From contig OX597816.1 of the NCBI GenBank assembly GCA_951406725.2, forward strand, positions 103,540,001 through 103,604,000: 64,000 bases of DNA, in the 5' to 3' direction. This DNA comes from Octopus vulgaris (taxonomy: Eukaryota). The first letter of the stretch is position 1. Each line of letters starts with the position of its first letter. Below, piece by piece: positions 28,037 through 50,250 of the stretch. The translations under genes were made by a program, and so were the position numbers. The notes under the pieces were generated by a model that saw only the letters and a program-made list of their open reading frames with translations, was not told where the DNA came from and made no database searches.

Positions 28037-28040
<4 letters not shown>

Positions 28041-28266
28041 GCTTTATTTAAAAGCAGCAGAAAATTCAACAAAACCTATTACTCTGAGTTTCACGTTCGG
28101 GAACGGGAAACTCAGAGTAACAGGACTGTCCGATGAACGGGAACTTGAATCTCAGAGTAACAGGTTTTCTTGAATTTTCTGCTGCTTTTAAATAAAGCAT
28201 ATTACTCTACCACTGGTATTTGAGTACTCTTTTTTCCACCTTGTTTCACATTTATGTGTTTACTCC

Positions 28267-28268
<2 letters not shown>
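28037..28268 (+). mobile_element. Penelope-like pLTR relic with 62-bp inverted repeat and decayed minimal hammerhead
   Basis: Arms 28037-28098 and 28141-28202 are reverse complements; ctgt-ccgatga-acgggaactt-gaat-c-tcaga-gta-acag at 28126-28163; flanked by (TA)n. Confidence 0.65.
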
Positions 28269-28309
<41 letters not shown>

Positions 28310-28829: not shown

Positions 28830-28911
28830 AAAAATATGGAATGCTTCATGAATTTGTGTGCCATCCTTGCGCAGGGCCATGCTAATCTTCTCTGTATTGT
28901 TCCACTGTTAG
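28830..28911 (-). pseudogene. U6: U6 snRNA-derived copy lacking the U6 5' stem-loop
   Basis: Minus strand CTAACAGTGGAACAATACAGAGAAGATTAGCATGGCCCTGCGCAAGGATGGCACACAAATTCATGAAGCATTCCATATTTTT contains the ACAGAGA box and the U6 3' region; several CpG-decay substitutions. Confidence 0.9.
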
Positions 28912-29032
28912 AACATTTACCGCCATATGCCTCTATATGTTTATATATACATATATTTATATATATATGTGCATATATATATATATATATATATATACAT
29001 TTATATATACACACATATATATATCTATACGA

Positions 29033-30044: not shown

Positions 30045-30128
30045 TCTACCTCTGATGAGTGCAGGGTTACATAATTGGAATGTTACCTAACAATCTGTTG
30101 AACCCCATGTGCGAAACCAAGTGTAAGA
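30045..30128 (+). ncRNA. Decayed hammerhead ribozyme motif in a short insert within (TA)n
   Basis: CTGATGA 30052-30058; stem II gtgca-gggtt/aaccc-ca-tgtgc; GAAA 30113-30116; C-caagt-GTA; stem I only about 2 bp. Confidence 0.5.
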
Positions 30129-30179
30129 TCTGCTGTAATGGCTATATAATGCTATACACCTTGATTAATATGTAATACA

Positions 30180-42756: not shown

Positions 42757-42900
42757 TGTATATATATATATATGCGTATATATATATGCTGCAATTTTTG
42801 CAACTTGTAATAAAGCCTGTCTTTGTATGAAACAATTGTACTAAAAACTAATCCATTCTTGTTGCTTCTTTCTCGTATATATATATATATATATATATAT

Positions 42901-43311
42901 TCTCTTTCTCTTTTCTCTTTTACTTGTTTCAGTCATTTGACTGTGGCCATGCTGGAGCACCGCCTTTAGTCAAGCAAATCGACCCCGGGACTTATTCTTT
43001 GTAAGCCCAGTACTTATACTATCGGTCTCTTTTGCCGAACCGCTAAGTGACGGGGACGTAAACACACCAGCATCGGTTGTCAAGCAATGGTAGGGGGACA
43101 AACACAGACACACAAACACACACACACATACATATATATACATATATACGACAGGCTTCTTTCAGTTTCCGTCTACTCAATCCACTCACAAGGCATTGGT
43201 CGGCCCAGGGCTGTAGCAGAAGACACTTGCCCAAGATGCCACGCAGTGGGACTGAACCCGGAACCATGTTGTTGGTTAGCAAGCTACTTACCACATAGCC
43301 ACTCCTGCACC
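42901..43311 (-). mobile_element. tRNA-derived SINE family A, full length (CORE-like centre, internal TA/TG tract)
   Basis: A box tggctatgtggt, B box ggttcagtccc, gtggcatcttgggcaagtgtctt, 3' gactgaaacaagtaaaag. Confidence 0.9.
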
Positions 43312-43457
43312 TATATATATGCGTATATATATGTATATATATGTGTGTGTATATATATATATATATGCGTATATATATATATATGTGTGTGTGTATATAT
43401 ATATATGCGTATATATATATATGTGTGTGTGTGTGTATGTATATATATATGTATGTG

Positions 43458-43534
<77 letters not shown>

Positions 43535-43758
43535 ATATGTCCTTCTGTCCAACATTCGCCATGATAGACCACTAGCCACTACACATTCTTTATTTTCTCT
43601 CCTTGTTTCCTTCTGTGCTCCTTTCTGTGGAAGAGTGTAGGCTCGAAATGTTAAAGACTTTTTCACTTCCCAAGCATTATACTAATACATTTGTTTGTTG
43701 TCTACACCACCTGTCTTCGTCTTTTGTTTTTTTTGTGAATTCTCCCTATATACATATA

Positions 43759-43809
<51 letters not shown>

Positions 43810-44079
43810 ATATAGGTTATAAGAGATAATGGCATCAATAAGACCCAAAGGTGTCAGGTAGTGCTGAGTAAGTGCTATGGATAGACCATAGGTAAGCTCC
43901 ATGTTTGGTGATTATGCGAATAAGGAGTCCAACGTAGGTCATATATCAGCATGTATATATATGACATATATTTATCTCATTCTGAAAAAAAAATTTTCTA
44001 TATATTTATATGTATACATATATATACATGTATATAAATAAATGAAAGAATGGAGTCGAACGAAGATGTTAACAAAATT

Positions 44080-44172
44080 CCTTTACTCTCGACATATGTT
44101 TCGAAGACAACATGGTTTCATTCCAAAGGAATAAAGGGTGCACTATGCAATCTTCTCATCAGGAAAGAAAGG
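44080..44172 (-). ncRNA. Minimal type-I hammerhead ribozyme (Penelope-like)
   Basis: cctttctttc-CTGATGA-gaaga...tcttc-GAAA-C-atat-GTC-gagag(t)aaagg; predicted cut between 44091 and 44090. Confidence 0.85.
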
Positions 44173-44910
44173 GAGCGTCTCTTGACAACAAGACAAACAA
44201 AAATTTCGATGACTGCCTACATGGTAAACAAAACGATAATGAGTGTTTTTAAAAAAACTGTTAGAAGAATTGACGTCAAAGATAGATAGTAGGAAGAGAA
44301 GGGTTAAAGGAATAATAGGTAGGGAACAAGTGGAGAGGGAAGGGTACGTTGATTGAAAGAATGTTTGAAGGCTTAGGAAAGAATTTCGCTATTGAAGTGG
44401 AGTGCACGTTAAGCTAATTGTTCAAACCACAGTGACTATCGTTATCATTTATATGAGTAGAAAGTATGTTTCTGCCAGTGTTTACATTTGTATGATTTTT
44501 CTATGAGTGTGTTTACAAGGGGAACCTTATATATACATATATATACATATATACATATATATATATGTGTGTATTGTATATATGTATGTATGTATATATA
44601 TATATGTATGTATATATATATGTATGTATGTATATATATATATATGTATATATGTATATATATATGTATATATGTATGTATGTATATATGTATGTATATA
44701 TGTATATATATATATATATGTATATATATAGATATATATTTATATATATATATATTTATATATAATATAAATATAAGAGAGTGGTCACTATATGGCTCAC
44801 TCTAGCACCAGTTAATCCAAAAGGTTTCAACCACAGAAATACATGTTTCCCATGAAAGTCAGTACGATTGTTAGCTCACACGGACAGGGCAAATAAAAAA
44901 TAACAAAATA

Positions 44911-45006
44911 CAGATTATCTTGGGACAATTGTTTCGCTATTAATGAATTAAATGTAATTTTACTTACAATAAAATCCACTTGTAGCTCTTCAGCCAAGAC
45001 TATCTG
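44911..45006 (-). ncRNA. Minimal type-I hammerhead ribozyme, left tandem copy
   Basis: cagat-ag-tcttgg-CTGAAGA-gcta-(43 nt)-tagc-GAAA-C-aatt-GTC-ccaaga-ta-atctg; predicted cut 44924/44923. Confidence 0.9.
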
Positions 45007-45444
45007 GATGAAATCCACTCAATCACACGCCAGATTTTACCATAACGATAAATACGCGTGTGGTTCAATTGATTACATCCGACGTTATAATTCAAATGCC
45101 CCAACTAACAGCGCGCCAAACTTTCACGGAAAACAAATACAGCATTTAGAAATAAATGCAGCATAATTATAATTAATTAATAAGGGTGAGAGAATTAGAT
45201 ACTAATTTAATAGTATATCTATTCAACACCAAGTGGCCTAGTGCTCCGAGAAACCTGGATTATTATAATATTTTATAATATATTATAATATTTTTACAAA
45301 ATAAATATAAGAGAGTGGTCACTATATGGCTCACTCTAGCACCAGTTAATCCAAAAGGTTTCAACCACAGAAATACATGTTTCCCATGAAAGTCAGTACG
45401 ATTGTTAGCTCACACGGACAGGGCAAATAAAAAATAACAAAATA

Positions 45445-45540
45445 CAGATTATCTTGGGACAATTGTTTCGCTATTAATGAATTAAATGTAATTTTACTTA
45501 CAATAAAATCCACTTGTAGCTCTTCAGCCAAGACTATCTG
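45445..45540 (-). ncRNA. Minimal type-I hammerhead ribozyme, right tandem copy
   Basis: Identical to 44911-45006; predicted cut 45458/45457. Confidence 0.9.
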
Positions 45541-45646
45541 GATGAAATCCACTCAATCACACGCCAGATTTTACCATAACGATAAATACGCGTGTGGTTC
45601 AATTGATTACATCCGACGTTATAATTCCCCTTATTAATTAATTATA

Positions 45647-45648
45647 TT

Positions 45649-45679
<31 letters not shown>

Positions 45680-45692
45680 ATATATAGATATA

Positions 45693-45747
<55 letters not shown>

Positions 45748-45900
45748 ATATATATGTATGTATATATATATGTATGTATATATATATGTATGTATATATA
45801 TATGTATGTATATATATATGTATGTATATATATATGTATGTATATATATATGTATGTATATATATATGTATGTATATATATATGTATATATATATATATG

Positions 45901-45952
<52 letters not shown>

Positions 45953-45960
45953 CATACATA

Positions 45961-46019
<59 letters not shown>

Positions 46020-46072
46020 ATATATATCTGTATATATATATATATATATATACATACACACATATATATATC

Positions 46073-46107
<35 letters not shown>

Positions 46108-46114
46108 ATATATA

Positions 46115-46146
<32 letters not shown>
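45647..46146. repeat. (TA)n/(TATG)n compound microsatellite (one of many between 25.8 and 51.1 kb)
   Basis: Directly visible. Confidence 0.95.
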
Positions 46147-46149
<3 letters not shown>

Positions 46150-46154
46150 TATGT

Positions 46155-46480
46155 GAAGGTACATGGCTCAGTGGTTAGAGCGTTGAGCTTACAAGCATGA
46201 GATTGTGATTTGGAATCCCGAACCTGGATGTGTGTTGTGTTCTTTAGCAAGGCATTTTATTCTATGTTGCTCCAGTTCACTCAGCTGTAGAAATGAGTTG
46301 CGATGTCACAGGTGCCAAGCTGTAATGGTCTTTGCCTTGGATAACACTGGTGGCATGGAGAGAGGAGGCTGGTATGCATGGGCGACTGTTGATCTTCCAT
46401 AAACAACCTTGCCCGGACTTGTGTCTGGGAGGGCAACTTTCTAGGTGCAACCCCATGGGAAGTCATGATTGAAAGGTCTC
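46155..46480 (+). mobile_element. SINE family D
   Basis: gaaggtacatggctcagtggttagagc...; homologous to 13006-13320. Confidence 0.85.
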
Positions 46481-46492
46481 AGCATATATGTA

Positions 46493-46558
<66 letters not shown>

Positions 46559-46920
46559 ATATATATGTATATATATATATATATTATTATATATATGTAT
46601 ATATATATATGTGTATATATATGTATATATATATGTATATATATATGTATATATATATATGTATATATATATGTATATATGTATATATATATATGTATAT
46701 ATATATGTATATATGTATATATATATATGTATATATATGTATATATATATGTATATTTATATGTATACACGGTTTAAGTAATTGAGATTCAAGTGAATTC
46801 TAATGAATTCACATGAATATGGTCCTTAACTAGAATGCACCGGAAATCTATATGGTGTTAACCATACGACAAGTGGGGTGATTACAAATAGGAAAAAAGC
46901 AACAAGAATGGATTAAAATA

Positions 46921-47004
46921 TCGGTACAATTGTTTCGTACGAGGACATCTTTAATAAGCTACAAAAAATGCAGTAAATATAGATGGCTCGTACTCGTCAG
47001 CCGA
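46921..47004 (-). ncRNA. Minimal type-I hammerhead ribozyme
   Basis: tcgg-CTGACGA-gtacgag-c-catct...agatg-tc-ctcgtac-GAAA-C-aatt-GTA-ccga. Confidence 0.88.
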
Positions 47005-48350
47005 AAAAACATCAGAGATTCCAAAACATCAAAAGGGGTAGATACAAATGAGAGTGTAGGTTTAACTGCATTGAAGAAAGTTTGATTCCTGGAGATCCGA
47101 TGTATATATGTATATATTTATATATTTATATATACATATGTGTGTATATATATATATATATATGTACACACATACACATGTATATGCATACATATATACA
47201 TACACATATTCACATGCTTGCATATATTGGTGAATTGGTAAAGTTGTTGGAATGTTGGACAGAATAACTTACCATACTTCCTCCTACTCTCTCTCTCTCT
47301 CTGCTTGTCTTCCATGAAAGAGGGAAAACCCTTGACTAAGCATATGCCTTGAAATGGAAAGTTTTGAGTGCAGATCCATAATTTCATAAGAGATAGAGAA
47401 GCCTCAGATTCCATCAGAACATTAGCTATGATATAATGATATAACTTTCGTTTCTCATTTTTTCTCTGATATTTTTCTTTTTATATTATATGTATCTATG
47501 AGGTTATAATGTCATTTTTTGTCCTTGTATGATGATATGTTCTGCTTAGTCACTGGAATTGCATTGTCCCCAAGAGACTGCAATTCTTTTGGTTTAAAGA
47601 AAAAAGAAAATATCTAGCAATCTTTATTCTGGCTCAAAACACCACTTTACTTTTTGCATCTTAGTGTTGTTGGAAAATGACATTTAGAGAGAGAACGGTT
47701 AGATAGTTTCCTCTGAAGTTCTTCTTCCTGCTGTTGAAAATTTCTGATAAAAAAATTATATCTACCTGCCTGCCTGCCTGTCTGTTCATCTAGCCATCCA
47801 TCCATTCAGTCATCCAACAACCAATCAATCAGTCAAATACAAGAGCAAGTAAAAAAGCATGTACTTAATACATATAATACAGTTTATAAAATTTGTTCCA
47901 GCCTGAGCTATTCTGCTTCCCTATTCTAACTTTTATATGTCACAGTGAAACCTGGAAACATGATATTCTTAATAGTAATGGAATTGGAGGAAAGTCTGAG
48001 CTTTGGTACTTCGTTTTTGCATCTGGTTTGCAAGATTCTTTATGTGAATTCATGTATAGGAAATTTGGTGGATAGGAATTATTCAGCAGCCTATTATGTA
48101 CATATGTATGTGTATGTGCTTATATATATATATATTAAACTTTTACTGGGTAAAGGTTGACAGTGACTTTGCAGTTTCAACTTTCTTGCCTCCTTCAGAC
48201 TTCAAAGTCAGTATCAACCTGTTCTTTGTAAAAGTTTAATAAACATGAACTCTACTAAAAGTATTGACTAATCCTTCAGTTAAATGTTAAGTTGTTTTTA
48301 TACATAACTTGACATAAAAATAACTATTAACTTTTAATACATATATCTAT

Positions 48351-48517
48351 GTAGGAGAGGCTGTGTGGTAAGTAGCTTCCTTACGAACCACATGGTTCCG
48401 GGTTCAGTCTCACTATGTGGCACCTTGGGGAAGTGTCTTCTACTATAGCCTCGGGCCAACCAAAGCCTTGTGAGTGGATTTGGTAGACGGAAACTGAAAG
48501 AAGCCCGTGTATATATG

Positions 48518-48548
<31 letters not shown>

Positions 48549-48749
48549 TTGTGTGTCTGTGTTTGTCCTCCTAACATCACTTGACAACTGATGCTGGTAT
48601 GTTTACGTCCCCGTAACTTAGCGGTTTGGCAAAAGAGACCAATAGCATAAGTACTAGGCTTACAAAGAATAAGTCCTGGGGTTGATTTGCTTGACTAAAG
48701 GCGGTGCTCTAGCATGGCCACAGTCAAATGACTGAAACAAGTAAAAGAG
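48351..48749 (+). mobile_element. SINE family A, full length
   Basis: Reverse-complement homologue of 42901-43311. Confidence 0.9.
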
Positions 48750-49680
48750 TGTGTGTGTGTGTTATCGGGTAGCTATTATTTTTCACCGAGTTGTATACTA
48801 TTTGTGAGTACTCTTAACTGTGATGTAGCTGAGCAACCTTAATTGAAATAGCTTACAAATCTCCATCATATCACTCCCTCTCACCTTAACCCTTTAGTAT
48901 TTAAATTGACCATATTTTGCTTCTTTTACATTTAAATTGGCCAGATCCAACATCTTACATATACCCTACAATGTCTTTCTAAAAATAAACTACCGCATCA
49001 AAATTTTGAAGCTATAAGATTAATTCAAAACAATGTGAATAAATAAGTATTACGTTTGACAGAATAATCTGAATGCTAAAAGGTTAAGAGGTGAAAGACA
49101 TAGAAGATAATGTTGTCTTTTAGGCACACAACCTGAAAGAAGAAATGGGATGAGTAATTACAGCTGGAAGGATTTTGGTCATAGGGTTGCTCCGTTAGGT
49201 CAAATCTGAGGCTAAGCAACAACAGCAGTGTACTATCTGATATAGTCTCCCTGTTATCAGTGTAACCTATTGGTTTATGGATTTTGGAGAGCATCCCCTA
49301 TTCATGTTTTAAAAGAACTAGTATATAGACAATTTTGGGGAGATGATGTTTTGGGAATAGAGAATGTGAGGGAATATAAGTGATTCTGTATATATGTATG
49401 TAAGAATGTCTTTGTGTGTTTGGTGTCTGTACATCTGTGAGTAAACAGTAGTAAAAAAAAAGAAAGAGGATTATTAAAAGAAAAGAAAAAAAATAATTGT
49501 TGTAAGCAGATTATATGAAGAAAGTAATATAAAGTTGCAGATCAAGTAAATATGCTATATCACAGATGTTAAAAATATCAGCTTGTATATATGTATGCGT
49601 TTATATATATATATATATGTATATACATATGAAAATGAGATGACAAAGGAATAATAGATAAATTGCACTTTATATTCAAG

Positions 49681-49759
49681 GCTTCGATGAAGCTATAAAG
49701 TATTACTCAGGCACTCAACTATAAGTCCACTGCATCTTATAGCAGAAACAGCTGGAAGC
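49681..49759 (+). ncRNA. Decayed hammerhead motif
   Basis: gct-tcgatga-a-gctataa...ttatagc-a-GAAA-C-agct-GGA-agc: core and cleavage triplet mutated, palindromic loop III retained. Confidence 0.5.
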
Positions 49760-49934
49760 TAATGAAGTTCATATGATAATCGTTTATTCCTTTGTTCTCT
49801 CATTTTCTTACTACAGCTCTGTACTCGACTAACGCTTTGTTTTGAAGCATACGTATACTGAGTTCTACACCAGGTTATTAGCCTCACAAAGCTTCTGTGA
49901 AATATATATATATGCATGTGTGTGTGTGTGTGTA

Positions 49935-49966
<32 letters not shown>

Positions 49967-49975
49967 GTTATGTTG

Positions 49976-50083
49976 TATTTGCCTGAGGAAACACAACTAG
50001 ATCTCATTTTGCAAACAAACAGTTGCATAATTAAATACCTGTATTCTTGAAGAATTAGTGTGTTGAAACAATTGTAGCAAATA
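49976..50083 (+). ncRNA. Minimal type-I hammerhead ribozyme
   Basis: tatttgc-CTGAGGA-aacaca...tgtgtt-GAAA-C-aatt-GTA-gcaaata; 7-bp stem I; predicted cut after 50076. Confidence 0.85.
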
Positions 50084-50134
50084 ATAAACAAATGTCCAAC
50101 TGTATTCCCTCTTCTTGACTCCAATTTCTCCAAT

Positions 50135-50250
<116 letters not shown>

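What the first reader, a model, noticed from the sequence alone, without database searches (positions are those of the whole stretch)
42788..50130. Hot-spot of sequence-unrelated hammerhead cassettes nested in (TA)n microsatellites
Seen: within about 7.3 kb there are five intact hammerhead motifs from four families with different stems and cores (CUGAUGA, CUGAAGA, CUGACGA, CUGAGGA), plus three decayed or half motifs. All intact ones share a one-pair C-G helix III closed by a palindromic tetraloop (AUAU or AAUU) and a long helix/loop II (over 40 nt). Each insert is bounded by TA repeats. Pairing is kept while sequence differs, which argues against chance. Inference: several Penelope-like families target (TA)n, and the same tract has been hit repeatedly.
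Basis: partly seen in the sequence, partly recalled or inferred. Interest (0 to 1): 0.75.

Follow-up and report, generated by a model that had tools for sequence, protein, structure and literature searches.

The report
Clustered ribozyme-tipped Penelope retrotransposon ends
Seven jumping-gene fragments sit side by side in TA repeats here, four of them carrying intact hammerhead RNA motifs that are predicted to cut only in pairs; most are clipped ends of a known kind of retrotransposon that inserts into TA repeats, so the pile-up is likely an extreme but ordinary result of that preference.

Summary
Observation real: five intact type I hammerheads from four families (A-D; two of the five are tandem copies of B), each with a one-pair helix III, a palindromic loop and a 51-75-nt folded helix II; shuffles give 0.075 per window. 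The pattern occurs 13,876 times genome-wide (control 40). A and C (D from one copy) are 5'-truncated ends of Hydra-type Penelope-like elements (RT plus C-terminal GIY-YIG), known to target (TA)n and known in octopus. B is a young, non-coding 534-bp tandem retrozyme with the same insertion footprint. With a half motif, a decayed motif and a tail-only insert there are seven insertions in 7.3 kb against 0.25 per 10 kb at random: a real local excess, but within what TA-rich stretches could give by chance in 2.8 Gb. Not found in print: the long helix II as the norm in this clade, and an octopus subclade (family A) that lost the CxCX5C linker credited with TA targeting yet still ends in TA. Cleavage is untested and copy ends show no footprint of it. 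The scan found this system before on other DNA of this genome.

The parts
42788..42875 (+). Family E: 5'-truncated Penelope-type end with the 3' half of a long-arm hammerhead (loop AAUU), ending in TA
   Evidence: 98.9% to intact copy L202
43815..44000 (-). Family G: tail-only two-armed insert (long arm on -, 43815-43950; short inverted arm on +, about 43967-43998); its hammerhead is not included in this copy
44033..44527 (-). Family A: 3' end of a Hydra-type element (last codons of the ORF, 3' UTR, hammerhead), ends at the short 3' end
44091..44162 (-). Hammerhead A (CUGAUGA; helix II domain 53 nt; loop AUAU; predicted cut after GUC at 44091)
44767..45647 (-). Family B: non-coding 534-bp tandem unit (about 1.6 copies) plus an inverted arm of about 20 bp (+45628-45647) carrying the long 3' end; retrozyme type
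44924..44993 (-). Hammerhead B1 (CUGAAGA; 51 nt; AAUU)
45458..45527 (-). Hammerhead B2, identical to B1
46768..47103 (-). Family C: 3' end of a Hydra-type element with CxCX5C linker; ends at the long 3' end (+155)
46925..47000 (-). Hammerhead C (CUGACGA; 57 nt; AAUU)
49630..49902 (+). Family H: old two-armed insert with a decayed long-arm hammerhead (49684-49756, loop AGCU, core and cut triplet mutated)
49966..50135 (+). Family D: 170-bp old 3' end with hammerhead D (49983-50076; CUGAGGA; 75 nt; AAUU)
43747..47202 (.). Compound TA-rich tract (runs at 43747-43814, 44528-44775, 45643-46146, 46484-46767, 47103-47202) that holds G, A, B, C and one SINE-like repeat (46147-46483; label recalled)

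Best explanation
The cluster is seven separate insertions into TA repeats: clipped 3' ends of Hydra-type Penelope-like retrotransposons plus one non-coding tandem passenger (B) that likely uses their enzymes. Likely mechanism: the element's GIY-YIG nuclease nicks (TA)n on both strands; its reverse transcriptase starts inside the RNA at one of two fixed sites downstream of the hammerhead, copies back through the uncut or re-joined ribozyme, and usually stops early, which leaves short hammerhead-bearing stubs, often as two head-to-head arms with one short and one long end. The hammerhead is predicted to be silent alone and to cut as a pair through an 8-bp palindromic helix III. Every insertion leaves TA on both sides, so a long TA-rich stretch stays a target and collects families of different ages. 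Shown: motifs, family links, fixed TA junctions, paired ends. Inferred: nicking, priming, dimer cleavage, B's use of these enzymes.
For: ORFs upstream of A and C ends: YRDD, DKT, C-terminal nuclease without CCHH, CxxC-E...N-CxH; the same motifs stand in Hydra-1_Obim as printed in the supplement of PMC8557442 (compared by eye). The nuclease model matches I-TevI (Z 8.9, rmsd 2.6, 89 aligned) and T4 EndoII (Z 8.7, rmsd 3.0, 112 aligned). (TA)5 lies within 200 nt downstream in 30 of 30 C copies and within 221 nt in 27 of 30 A copies, against 15% (200 nt) and 25% (400 nt) at random points (partners of inverted pairs are counted as copies). Inverted pairs carry one short and one long end in 18 of 18 C, 12 of 14 A and 4 of 4 B loci; the tail recurs as the 5' UTR before the ATG, as in the two-start model of PMC11167929. 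Pairs changed on both sides: 9 of 18 in the C/E group, 4 of 24 in the A group. The loop is AAUU, AUAU, AGCU or ACGU in different families. A double hammerhead is 9-11 kcal/mol below two monomers. B: no ORF above 89 codons, 99% identical dispersed arrays, same two-end footprint.
Against: No cleavage data, and no footprint of cutting: only 2 of 88 A and 0 of 62 C 5' ends lie within 8 nt of the cut (biased, as most loci were chosen for holding the ribozyme), and 5 of 8 upstream repeats of long copies start before the cut (one weak 37-nt hit left out). RNAalifold alone did not recover the hammerhead fold for A or D, and D shows no compensatory pair; for A, 74 of 500 shuffles reach 4 covarying pairs. 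No Pfam RT hit; GIY-YIG only below cut-off (19.1 against 22.6 bits) for one C copy. No tree against reference clades. RWK reads RWL, and A lacks the linker. D is tied to a nuclease by 1 of 25 loci only, frameshifted; E, G and H were not traced to an ORF; no autonomous partner of B was found. TA content did not predict insert number in 80 random stretches (rho 0.04 and 0.10).
Confidence: 0.85

Rival explanations
1. A true hot spot: something about this locus (Z-DNA or cruciform-prone long TA runs, open germ-line chromatin, or feedback from earlier insertions) draws insertions far beyond its share of TA.
For: 7 inserts from 7 families in 7.3 kb; 20 in 800 kb of random DNA (max 2 per 10 kb); 1 in 200 kb of flank. 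Scaled to TA content, about 0.1 such stretch is expected per genome if my library is complete. The window's other TA-rich zone (25-35 kb, 22 TA blocks) has 0 strict motifs.
Against: With a broader descriptor (15 hits in 800 kb, some by chance) about 5 stretches with four or more motifs are expected per genome; about 6 with seven inserts if the library misses half the families. No excess clustering among the first 100 genome hits (3 mixed neighbours against 1.9 expected). The stretch was chosen for being extreme.
Confidence: 0.25
2. The hammerheads are no longer catalytic here; the conserved fold serves as a binding or positioning signal for the RT-nuclease, and the template is plain read-through RNA.
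For: Copies read through the cut site. In PMC11167929 ribozyme-dead RNA still served as template in vitro. The long helix II is kept across unrelated families.
Against: All catalytic core letters, the cut triplet and a palindromic helix III are kept across families that share 37-50% identity; the same paper found protein-assisted cleavage.
Confidence: 0.15
3. B arrays grew by local DNA tandem duplication (satellite-like) from one orphan Penelope end and are not retrotransposed as units.
For: Tandem arrays; this route is discussed in bioRxiv 10.64898/2026.07.22.740005 (passage); no autonomous partner found.
Against: Arrays are dispersed on many chromosomes at 99% identity, two-armed, with fixed ends at about +157 and +286 joined to TA and ragged 5' ends.
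Confidence: 0.07
4. Chance motifs in AT-rich repeat DNA.
For: None beyond the loose spacer of the pattern.
Against: 13,876 against 40 and 2,873 against 2 for reversed patterns; 5 against 0.075 in shuffles.
Confidence: 0.01

Closest known systems
Hydra clade of C-terminal EN+ Penelope-like elements, including Hydra-1_Obim of Octopus bimaculoides (Craig et al. 2021, PMC8557442; passages, section 11, supplement part 2 and search passages read)
   Same: Single ORF with RT and C-terminal GIY-YIG, DKT, no CCHH, CxxC and CxH around E and N, hammerhead in the 3' repeat, insertion into (TA)n, tandem and inverted 5'-truncated arms; CxCX5C linker in C and D.
   Different: Helix II domain 51-75 nt here, at most about 24 nt in the 26 Hydra rows of its File S2; helix III a perfect 8-nt palindrome; tail 120-160 nt against 30-40; ORFs up to 908 aa with long Asn-rich inserts; the A subclade has RWL and no linker cysteines. 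Long loop II has a precedent in that file (Selaginella PLE-X1, marked as deviating).
Metazoan non-LTR retrozymes (Cervera and de la Pena 2020, PMC7229834, passages read; Li, Clavereau and Pollet 2026, bioRxiv 10.64898/2026.07.22.740005, part 1 of 5 and passages read)
   Same: Family B: non-coding tandem units, one type I hammerhead each, low GC (33%); one-pair helix III with palindromic tetraloop as in axolotl HHR_Amex1.
   Different: 534-nt unit (published about 170-400 nt), long helix II, and a Penelope-type two-armed, TA-joined footprint that points to the mobilising enzymes. Circles untested.
Penelope hammerheads and dimer model (Cervera and de la Pena 2014, PMC4209133; parts 1-2 of 4 and passages read)
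   Same: Type I motif in the terminal repeats, mostly as truncated single copies or opposite-strand pairs; palindromic loop III; predicted dimer activity.
   Different: Their 'larger' helix II is 6-8 bp; here it is a multi-segment hairpin.
Poseidon PAc of Anolis (Frangieh et al. 2024, PMC11167929; parts 1-2 of 4 read)
   Same: Both strands of AT-rich DNA cut and extended, two internal RT start sites that define the tail.
   Different: Other clade; there the start sites lie inside the ORF, here in the 5' UTR and 120-160 nt apart.

Membership tests
Type I hammerhead ribozyme | Core CUGANGA...GAAA...UH with helices I, II, III | tested here: met
   5 of 5 motifs; pairs counted on alignments
Type I hammerhead ribozyme | Compensatory changes in the stems | tested here: met
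   C/E group 9 of 18 pairs; A group 4 of 24 (weak); D none
Type I hammerhead ribozyme | Match to an Rfam hammerhead model | tested here: not met
   0 hits at gathering score in 6 loci, none at E<=10 on the B insert; probably due to the long helix II (inference)
Type I hammerhead ribozyme | Self-cleavage | not testable with these tools
   Energy model only; no footprint in copy ends
Hydra-clade PLE | RT followed by C-terminal GIY-YIG in one ORF | tested here: met
   A subclade and C; D from one broken copy
Hydra-clade PLE | DKG changed to DKT | tested here: met
   8 of 8 A-subclade ORFs; the C ORF fetched does not reach this region
Hydra-clade PLE | No CCHH; CxxC and CxH beside E and N | tested here: met
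   alignment A4: C125, C128, E131, N144, H155 invariant in 9 of 9
Hydra-clade PLE | N-terminal RWK motif | tested here: inconclusive
   RWL at that place in the 6 ORFs that reach it; RW[KR] in 0 of 9
Hydra-clade PLE | CxCX5C linker before the nuclease (families C, D) | tested here: met
Hydra-clade PLE | CxCX5C linker before the nuclease (family A subclade) | tested here: not met
   0 of 8 long ORFs, 0 of 20 distinct A copies with any Cys there; A is therefore filed as a derived Hydra-like subclade
Hydra-clade PLE | Insertion into (TA)n | tested here: met
Hydra-clade PLE | RT groups with Hydra in a phylogeny | not tested
   Only motif comparison by eye with the supplement text
Non-LTR retrozyme (family B) | Non-coding tandem units, each with a type I hammerhead | tested here: met
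Non-LTR retrozyme (family B) | Expressed as linear and circular monomers | tested here: inconclusive
   Only contigs of runs not on record as RNA were available
Naiad PLE | N-terminal nuclease, no canonical hammerhead | tested here: not met
   Nuclease is C-terminal in A and C; G and H not traced to an ORF

The most novel reading that the evidence does not exclude
An octopus-specific, recently active Hydra-like subclade (family A and relatives, many long intact ORFs) has replaced the zinc-finger linker thought to guide Penelope elements to (TA)n by a conserved cysteine-free segment and still lands in (TA)n, so targeting does not need that finger; and the long helix II shared by tens of families is a functional module (protein grip or dimer switch) of a hammerhead class that standard models miss, with the palindromic loop acting as a pairing code between families.
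Probability: 0.45. Interest if true: 0.55.

Novelty: new variant of a known kind. Interest (0 to 1): 0.36.

Why it matters
The broad picture is published: Hydra elements, their hammerheads, their (TA)n preference and their presence in octopus. What this adds is testable detail. (1) A natural knockout of the linker hypothesis: families with and without CxCX5C in one genome, both TA-joined, both with long ORFs that could be expressed. (2) More than 16,000 long-arm hammerheads that Rfam misses. (3) A retrozyme whose ends carry the Penelope footprint, which supports the proposed but unshown link between animal retrozymes and Penelope enzymes. (4) A near-strict short-end/long-end rule in inverted pairs, which fits two primers per insertion. 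The cluster itself matters little.

Tried and rejected
Rfam: microsatellite-driven miRNA hits and a U6 copy only. Pfam and PDB sequence searches of the ORFs: nothing above cut-off. Foldseek: no match at E<=0.001, though the top six rows were GIY-YIG enzymes; the linker part of the model has pLDDT under 50, so the model says nothing about it. RNAalifold gave other folds for A and D. Pile-up of 5' ends at the cut site: not seen. Regional enrichment: 0 intact motifs in 200 kb of flank. Genome-wide clustering: not seen in the first 100 hits; family letters there were assigned by eye. Autonomous partner of B: only short patches of similarity in the loci held. Expression: no RNA holder listed; contigs of 4 runs whose kind is a guess cover the B unit, and one 565-nt contig (534+31) runs through the unit junction, which a tandem array and a circle would both give; not used as evidence. 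A host gene around the cluster: no convincing ORF in the window; exons not tested. Literature: searches showed no paper on long-helix-II octopus hammerheads or linker-less Hydra elements; subscription papers (for example Lunse et al. on dimeric Penelope hammerheads, recalled, not read) and the supplements of the bioRxiv paper and of PMC4209133 and PMC7229834 were not seen and may bear on this. Some long ORF copies listed were not fetched (8 of the 20 chosen were).
Full report
Setting. The window is G000:C3:103,540,001-103,604,000 of a 2.80-Gb genome in 227 contigs. The closest named proteins to the elements studied are labelled Octopus sinensis, so the host is most likely an octopus (inference).

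1. Observation. A hammerhead descriptor finds 5 motifs in the window, all between 44091 and 50076; 200 dinucleotide shuffles give 0.075 on average, never more than 1. Each has the full core, a helix I of 4-7 contiguous pairs, one C-G pair in helix III around AUAU or AAUU, and a helix II domain of 51-75 nt that folds as an interrupted hairpin. Representatives of A, B, C and D are 37-50% identical. The two B motifs are identical and 534 bp apart in one tandem insert. Two further motifs are confirmed: the half motif E and the decayed motif H, whose relatives have an intact core and an AGCU loop. Insert G is a tail without its hammerhead. Rfam does not report these motifs.

2. Genome-wide picture. 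The pattern CTGANGA N45-75 GAAACAWWTGTH has 13,876 matches against 40 for the reversed control; with an AGCT loop, 2,873 against 2; a fourth palindrome, ACGT, occurs in two long copies. With the loop left free, 133 of 152 distinct motifs in my loci are palindromic, but these loci were mostly fetched with palindromic patterns, and some random hits have other loops. Named structures hold in 93% and 90% of cells in the A and C/E alignments; 4 of 24 and 9 of 18 pairs change on both sides, and slid controls pair 28-51%. These are related sequences, so the shuffle counts are not probabilities. RNAalifold on its own recovered helices I and II only for C/E.

3. What the families are. Longer copies of A and C continue upstream into an ORF with the RT motif YRDD and a C-terminal nuclease. 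Eight long ORFs of the A subclade (778-908 aa) all have DKT and YRDD. The nuclease keeps Y, YxG, R, H, E and N and has CxxC and CxH but no CCHH; its model (mean pLDDT 68.8) matches I-TevI and T4 EndoII best (Z 8.9 and 8.7). These are the marks of the Hydra clade in section 11 of PMC8557442, whose supplement lists Hydra-1_Obim from Octopus bimaculoides with a (TA)n preference. D is linked to such a nuclease in 1 of 25 loci. E resembles C (67%). G and H were not traced to an ORF. B has no ORF above 89 codons, forms dispersed arrays at 99% identity, and fits the definition of a non-LTR retrozyme (papers).

4. Insertion footprint. In copies picked by the ribozyme alone, (TA)5 follows within 200 nt in 30 of 30 C copies and within 221 nt in 27 of 30 A copies; a mixed set gives 14 of 30 within 200 and 25 of 30 within 400; random points give 15% and 25%. 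The 5' side is ragged (TA within 200 nt in 8 of 30 C, 4 of 30 A). Each family has two fixed 3' ends, about +34/+155 (C), +55/+210 (A) and +157/+286 (B) from the predicted cut, and inverted pairs have one of each in 18 of 18, 12 of 14 and 4 of 4 loci. G, B and H show this two-armed form in the window. The tail recurs as the 5' UTR of the ORF. This matches the tail found at only one end (PMC8557442) and the two internal RT starts with both strands cut (PMC11167929), with a longer tail here. Copies read through the cut site: 2 of 88 A and 0 of 62 C 5' ends are within 8 nt of it (biased sample), and 5 of 8 upstream repeats begin before it. The template is therefore uncut or re-joined RNA; sequence cannot tell which.

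5. Ribozyme. Closing helix III in a monomer costs 0.3-1.0 kcal/mol, whereas a double hammerhead with an 8-bp palindromic helix III lies 9-11 kcal/mol below two monomers. That agrees with the dimer model in PMC4209133 and the axolotl motif in PMC7229834. B offers two motifs on one strand. Cutting is untested.

6. Hot spot. A library of 37 ends finds 7 inserts in the window, all within 42783-50133, 20 in 80 evenly spaced 10-kb stretches (61 with none, 18 with one, 1 with two) and 1 in 200 kb of flank. The area has 842 bp of TA runs per 10 kb against a mean of 252; 1 of 80 random stretches has more. Expected numbers of such clusters per genome range from about 0.003-0.03 (uniform rate) through 0.1 (scaled to TA) to 5-6 (broad descriptor, or a library missing half the families). 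Among the first 100 genome hits, 81 insertions, mixed-family neighbours within 6 kb number 3 against 1.9 expected. TA content did not predict insert number in the random set, and the window's other TA-rich zone has no strict motif. G, A, B and C share one compound TA tract; E, H and D do not. Identities to other copies (B 99%, C 96-99%, A 93-99%, G 89-93%, D 84-89%, H 79-88%) show hits at different times.

7. What differs from print. (a) Helix II: at most about 24 nt in the 26 Hydra rows of File S2, though two Selaginella elements there have long loops. (b) Linker: C and D have CxCX5C; 0 of 8 long A-subclade ORFs have it, 0 of 20 distinct A copies have any cysteine there, and all share a conserved cysteine-free segment. 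Of the best 150 relatives in a 1.84-billion-protein library, 91 have CxCX5C; the cysteine-free segment is in 2, both labelled Octopus sinensis, with a degenerate form in one unnamed protein (43 of the 150 could not be scored by my position test, and 10 scored proteins have at most one cysteine, apparently from broken N-termini). Five of the eight ORFs had a downstream hammerhead in the stretch fetched, with TA at +208 to +218. PMC8557442 ties the linker to (TA)n targeting, while noting that Chlamys elements target microsatellites without it. The A subclade is thus a natural test, not a wholly new idea.

8. Earlier scan notes. Notes on other DNA of this genome reached the same reading: Hydra ends, retrozyme passengers, long stems, and the short/long rule. 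They are unchecked and are not counted as support; their estimates of 50,000-100,000 motifs led me to recompute the background (about 52,000). The summaries shown did not mention the linker loss.

Verdict. A real feature; a new variant of a known kind; interest 0.36.

Noticed in passing
window 30045-30130 (+): Another long-arm hammerhead-like motif between TA runs (full core, 5-nt loop III, helix I only 2 contiguous pairs), missed by the descriptor.
   Followed up: no
window 28040-28270: Inverted-repeat insert between TA runs that looks like a two-armed Penelope-type insertion.
   Followed up: no
window 28830-28928 (-): U6 snRNA copy (79.9 bits) wedged between a SINE-like piece and a TA tract; probably a retrocopy.
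   Followed up: no
G000, many places; L361: Many copies with 899-aa open frames and identical scores: a very young linker-less family with an ACGU loop, a good candidate for biochemistry.
   Followed up: partly
P0001, P0005, P0151: Public databases name fragments of these element ORFs as Octopus sinensis host proteins ('dyrk1', 'DDB_G0288805-like'), likely because of the Asn-rich inserts.
   Followed up: partly
L229, 121-nt tail of family C: The tail between the two 3' ends folds strongly in C (z -4.1) and B (-2.5) but not A (-0.1).
   Followed up: partly
L219: A different long-arm hammerhead family shares about 70 nt with the B unit (83%) and a similar 3' tail; a lead to B's origin.
   Followed up: no
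L309, L314 upstream of the G match: Family G carries a short-helix-II hammerhead with the same AGCU palindrome as long-arm family H.
   Followed up: partly
L008/L113, L265, L207, L101: Other loci where hammerheads of two different families lie within 1-2 kb.
   Followed up: partly
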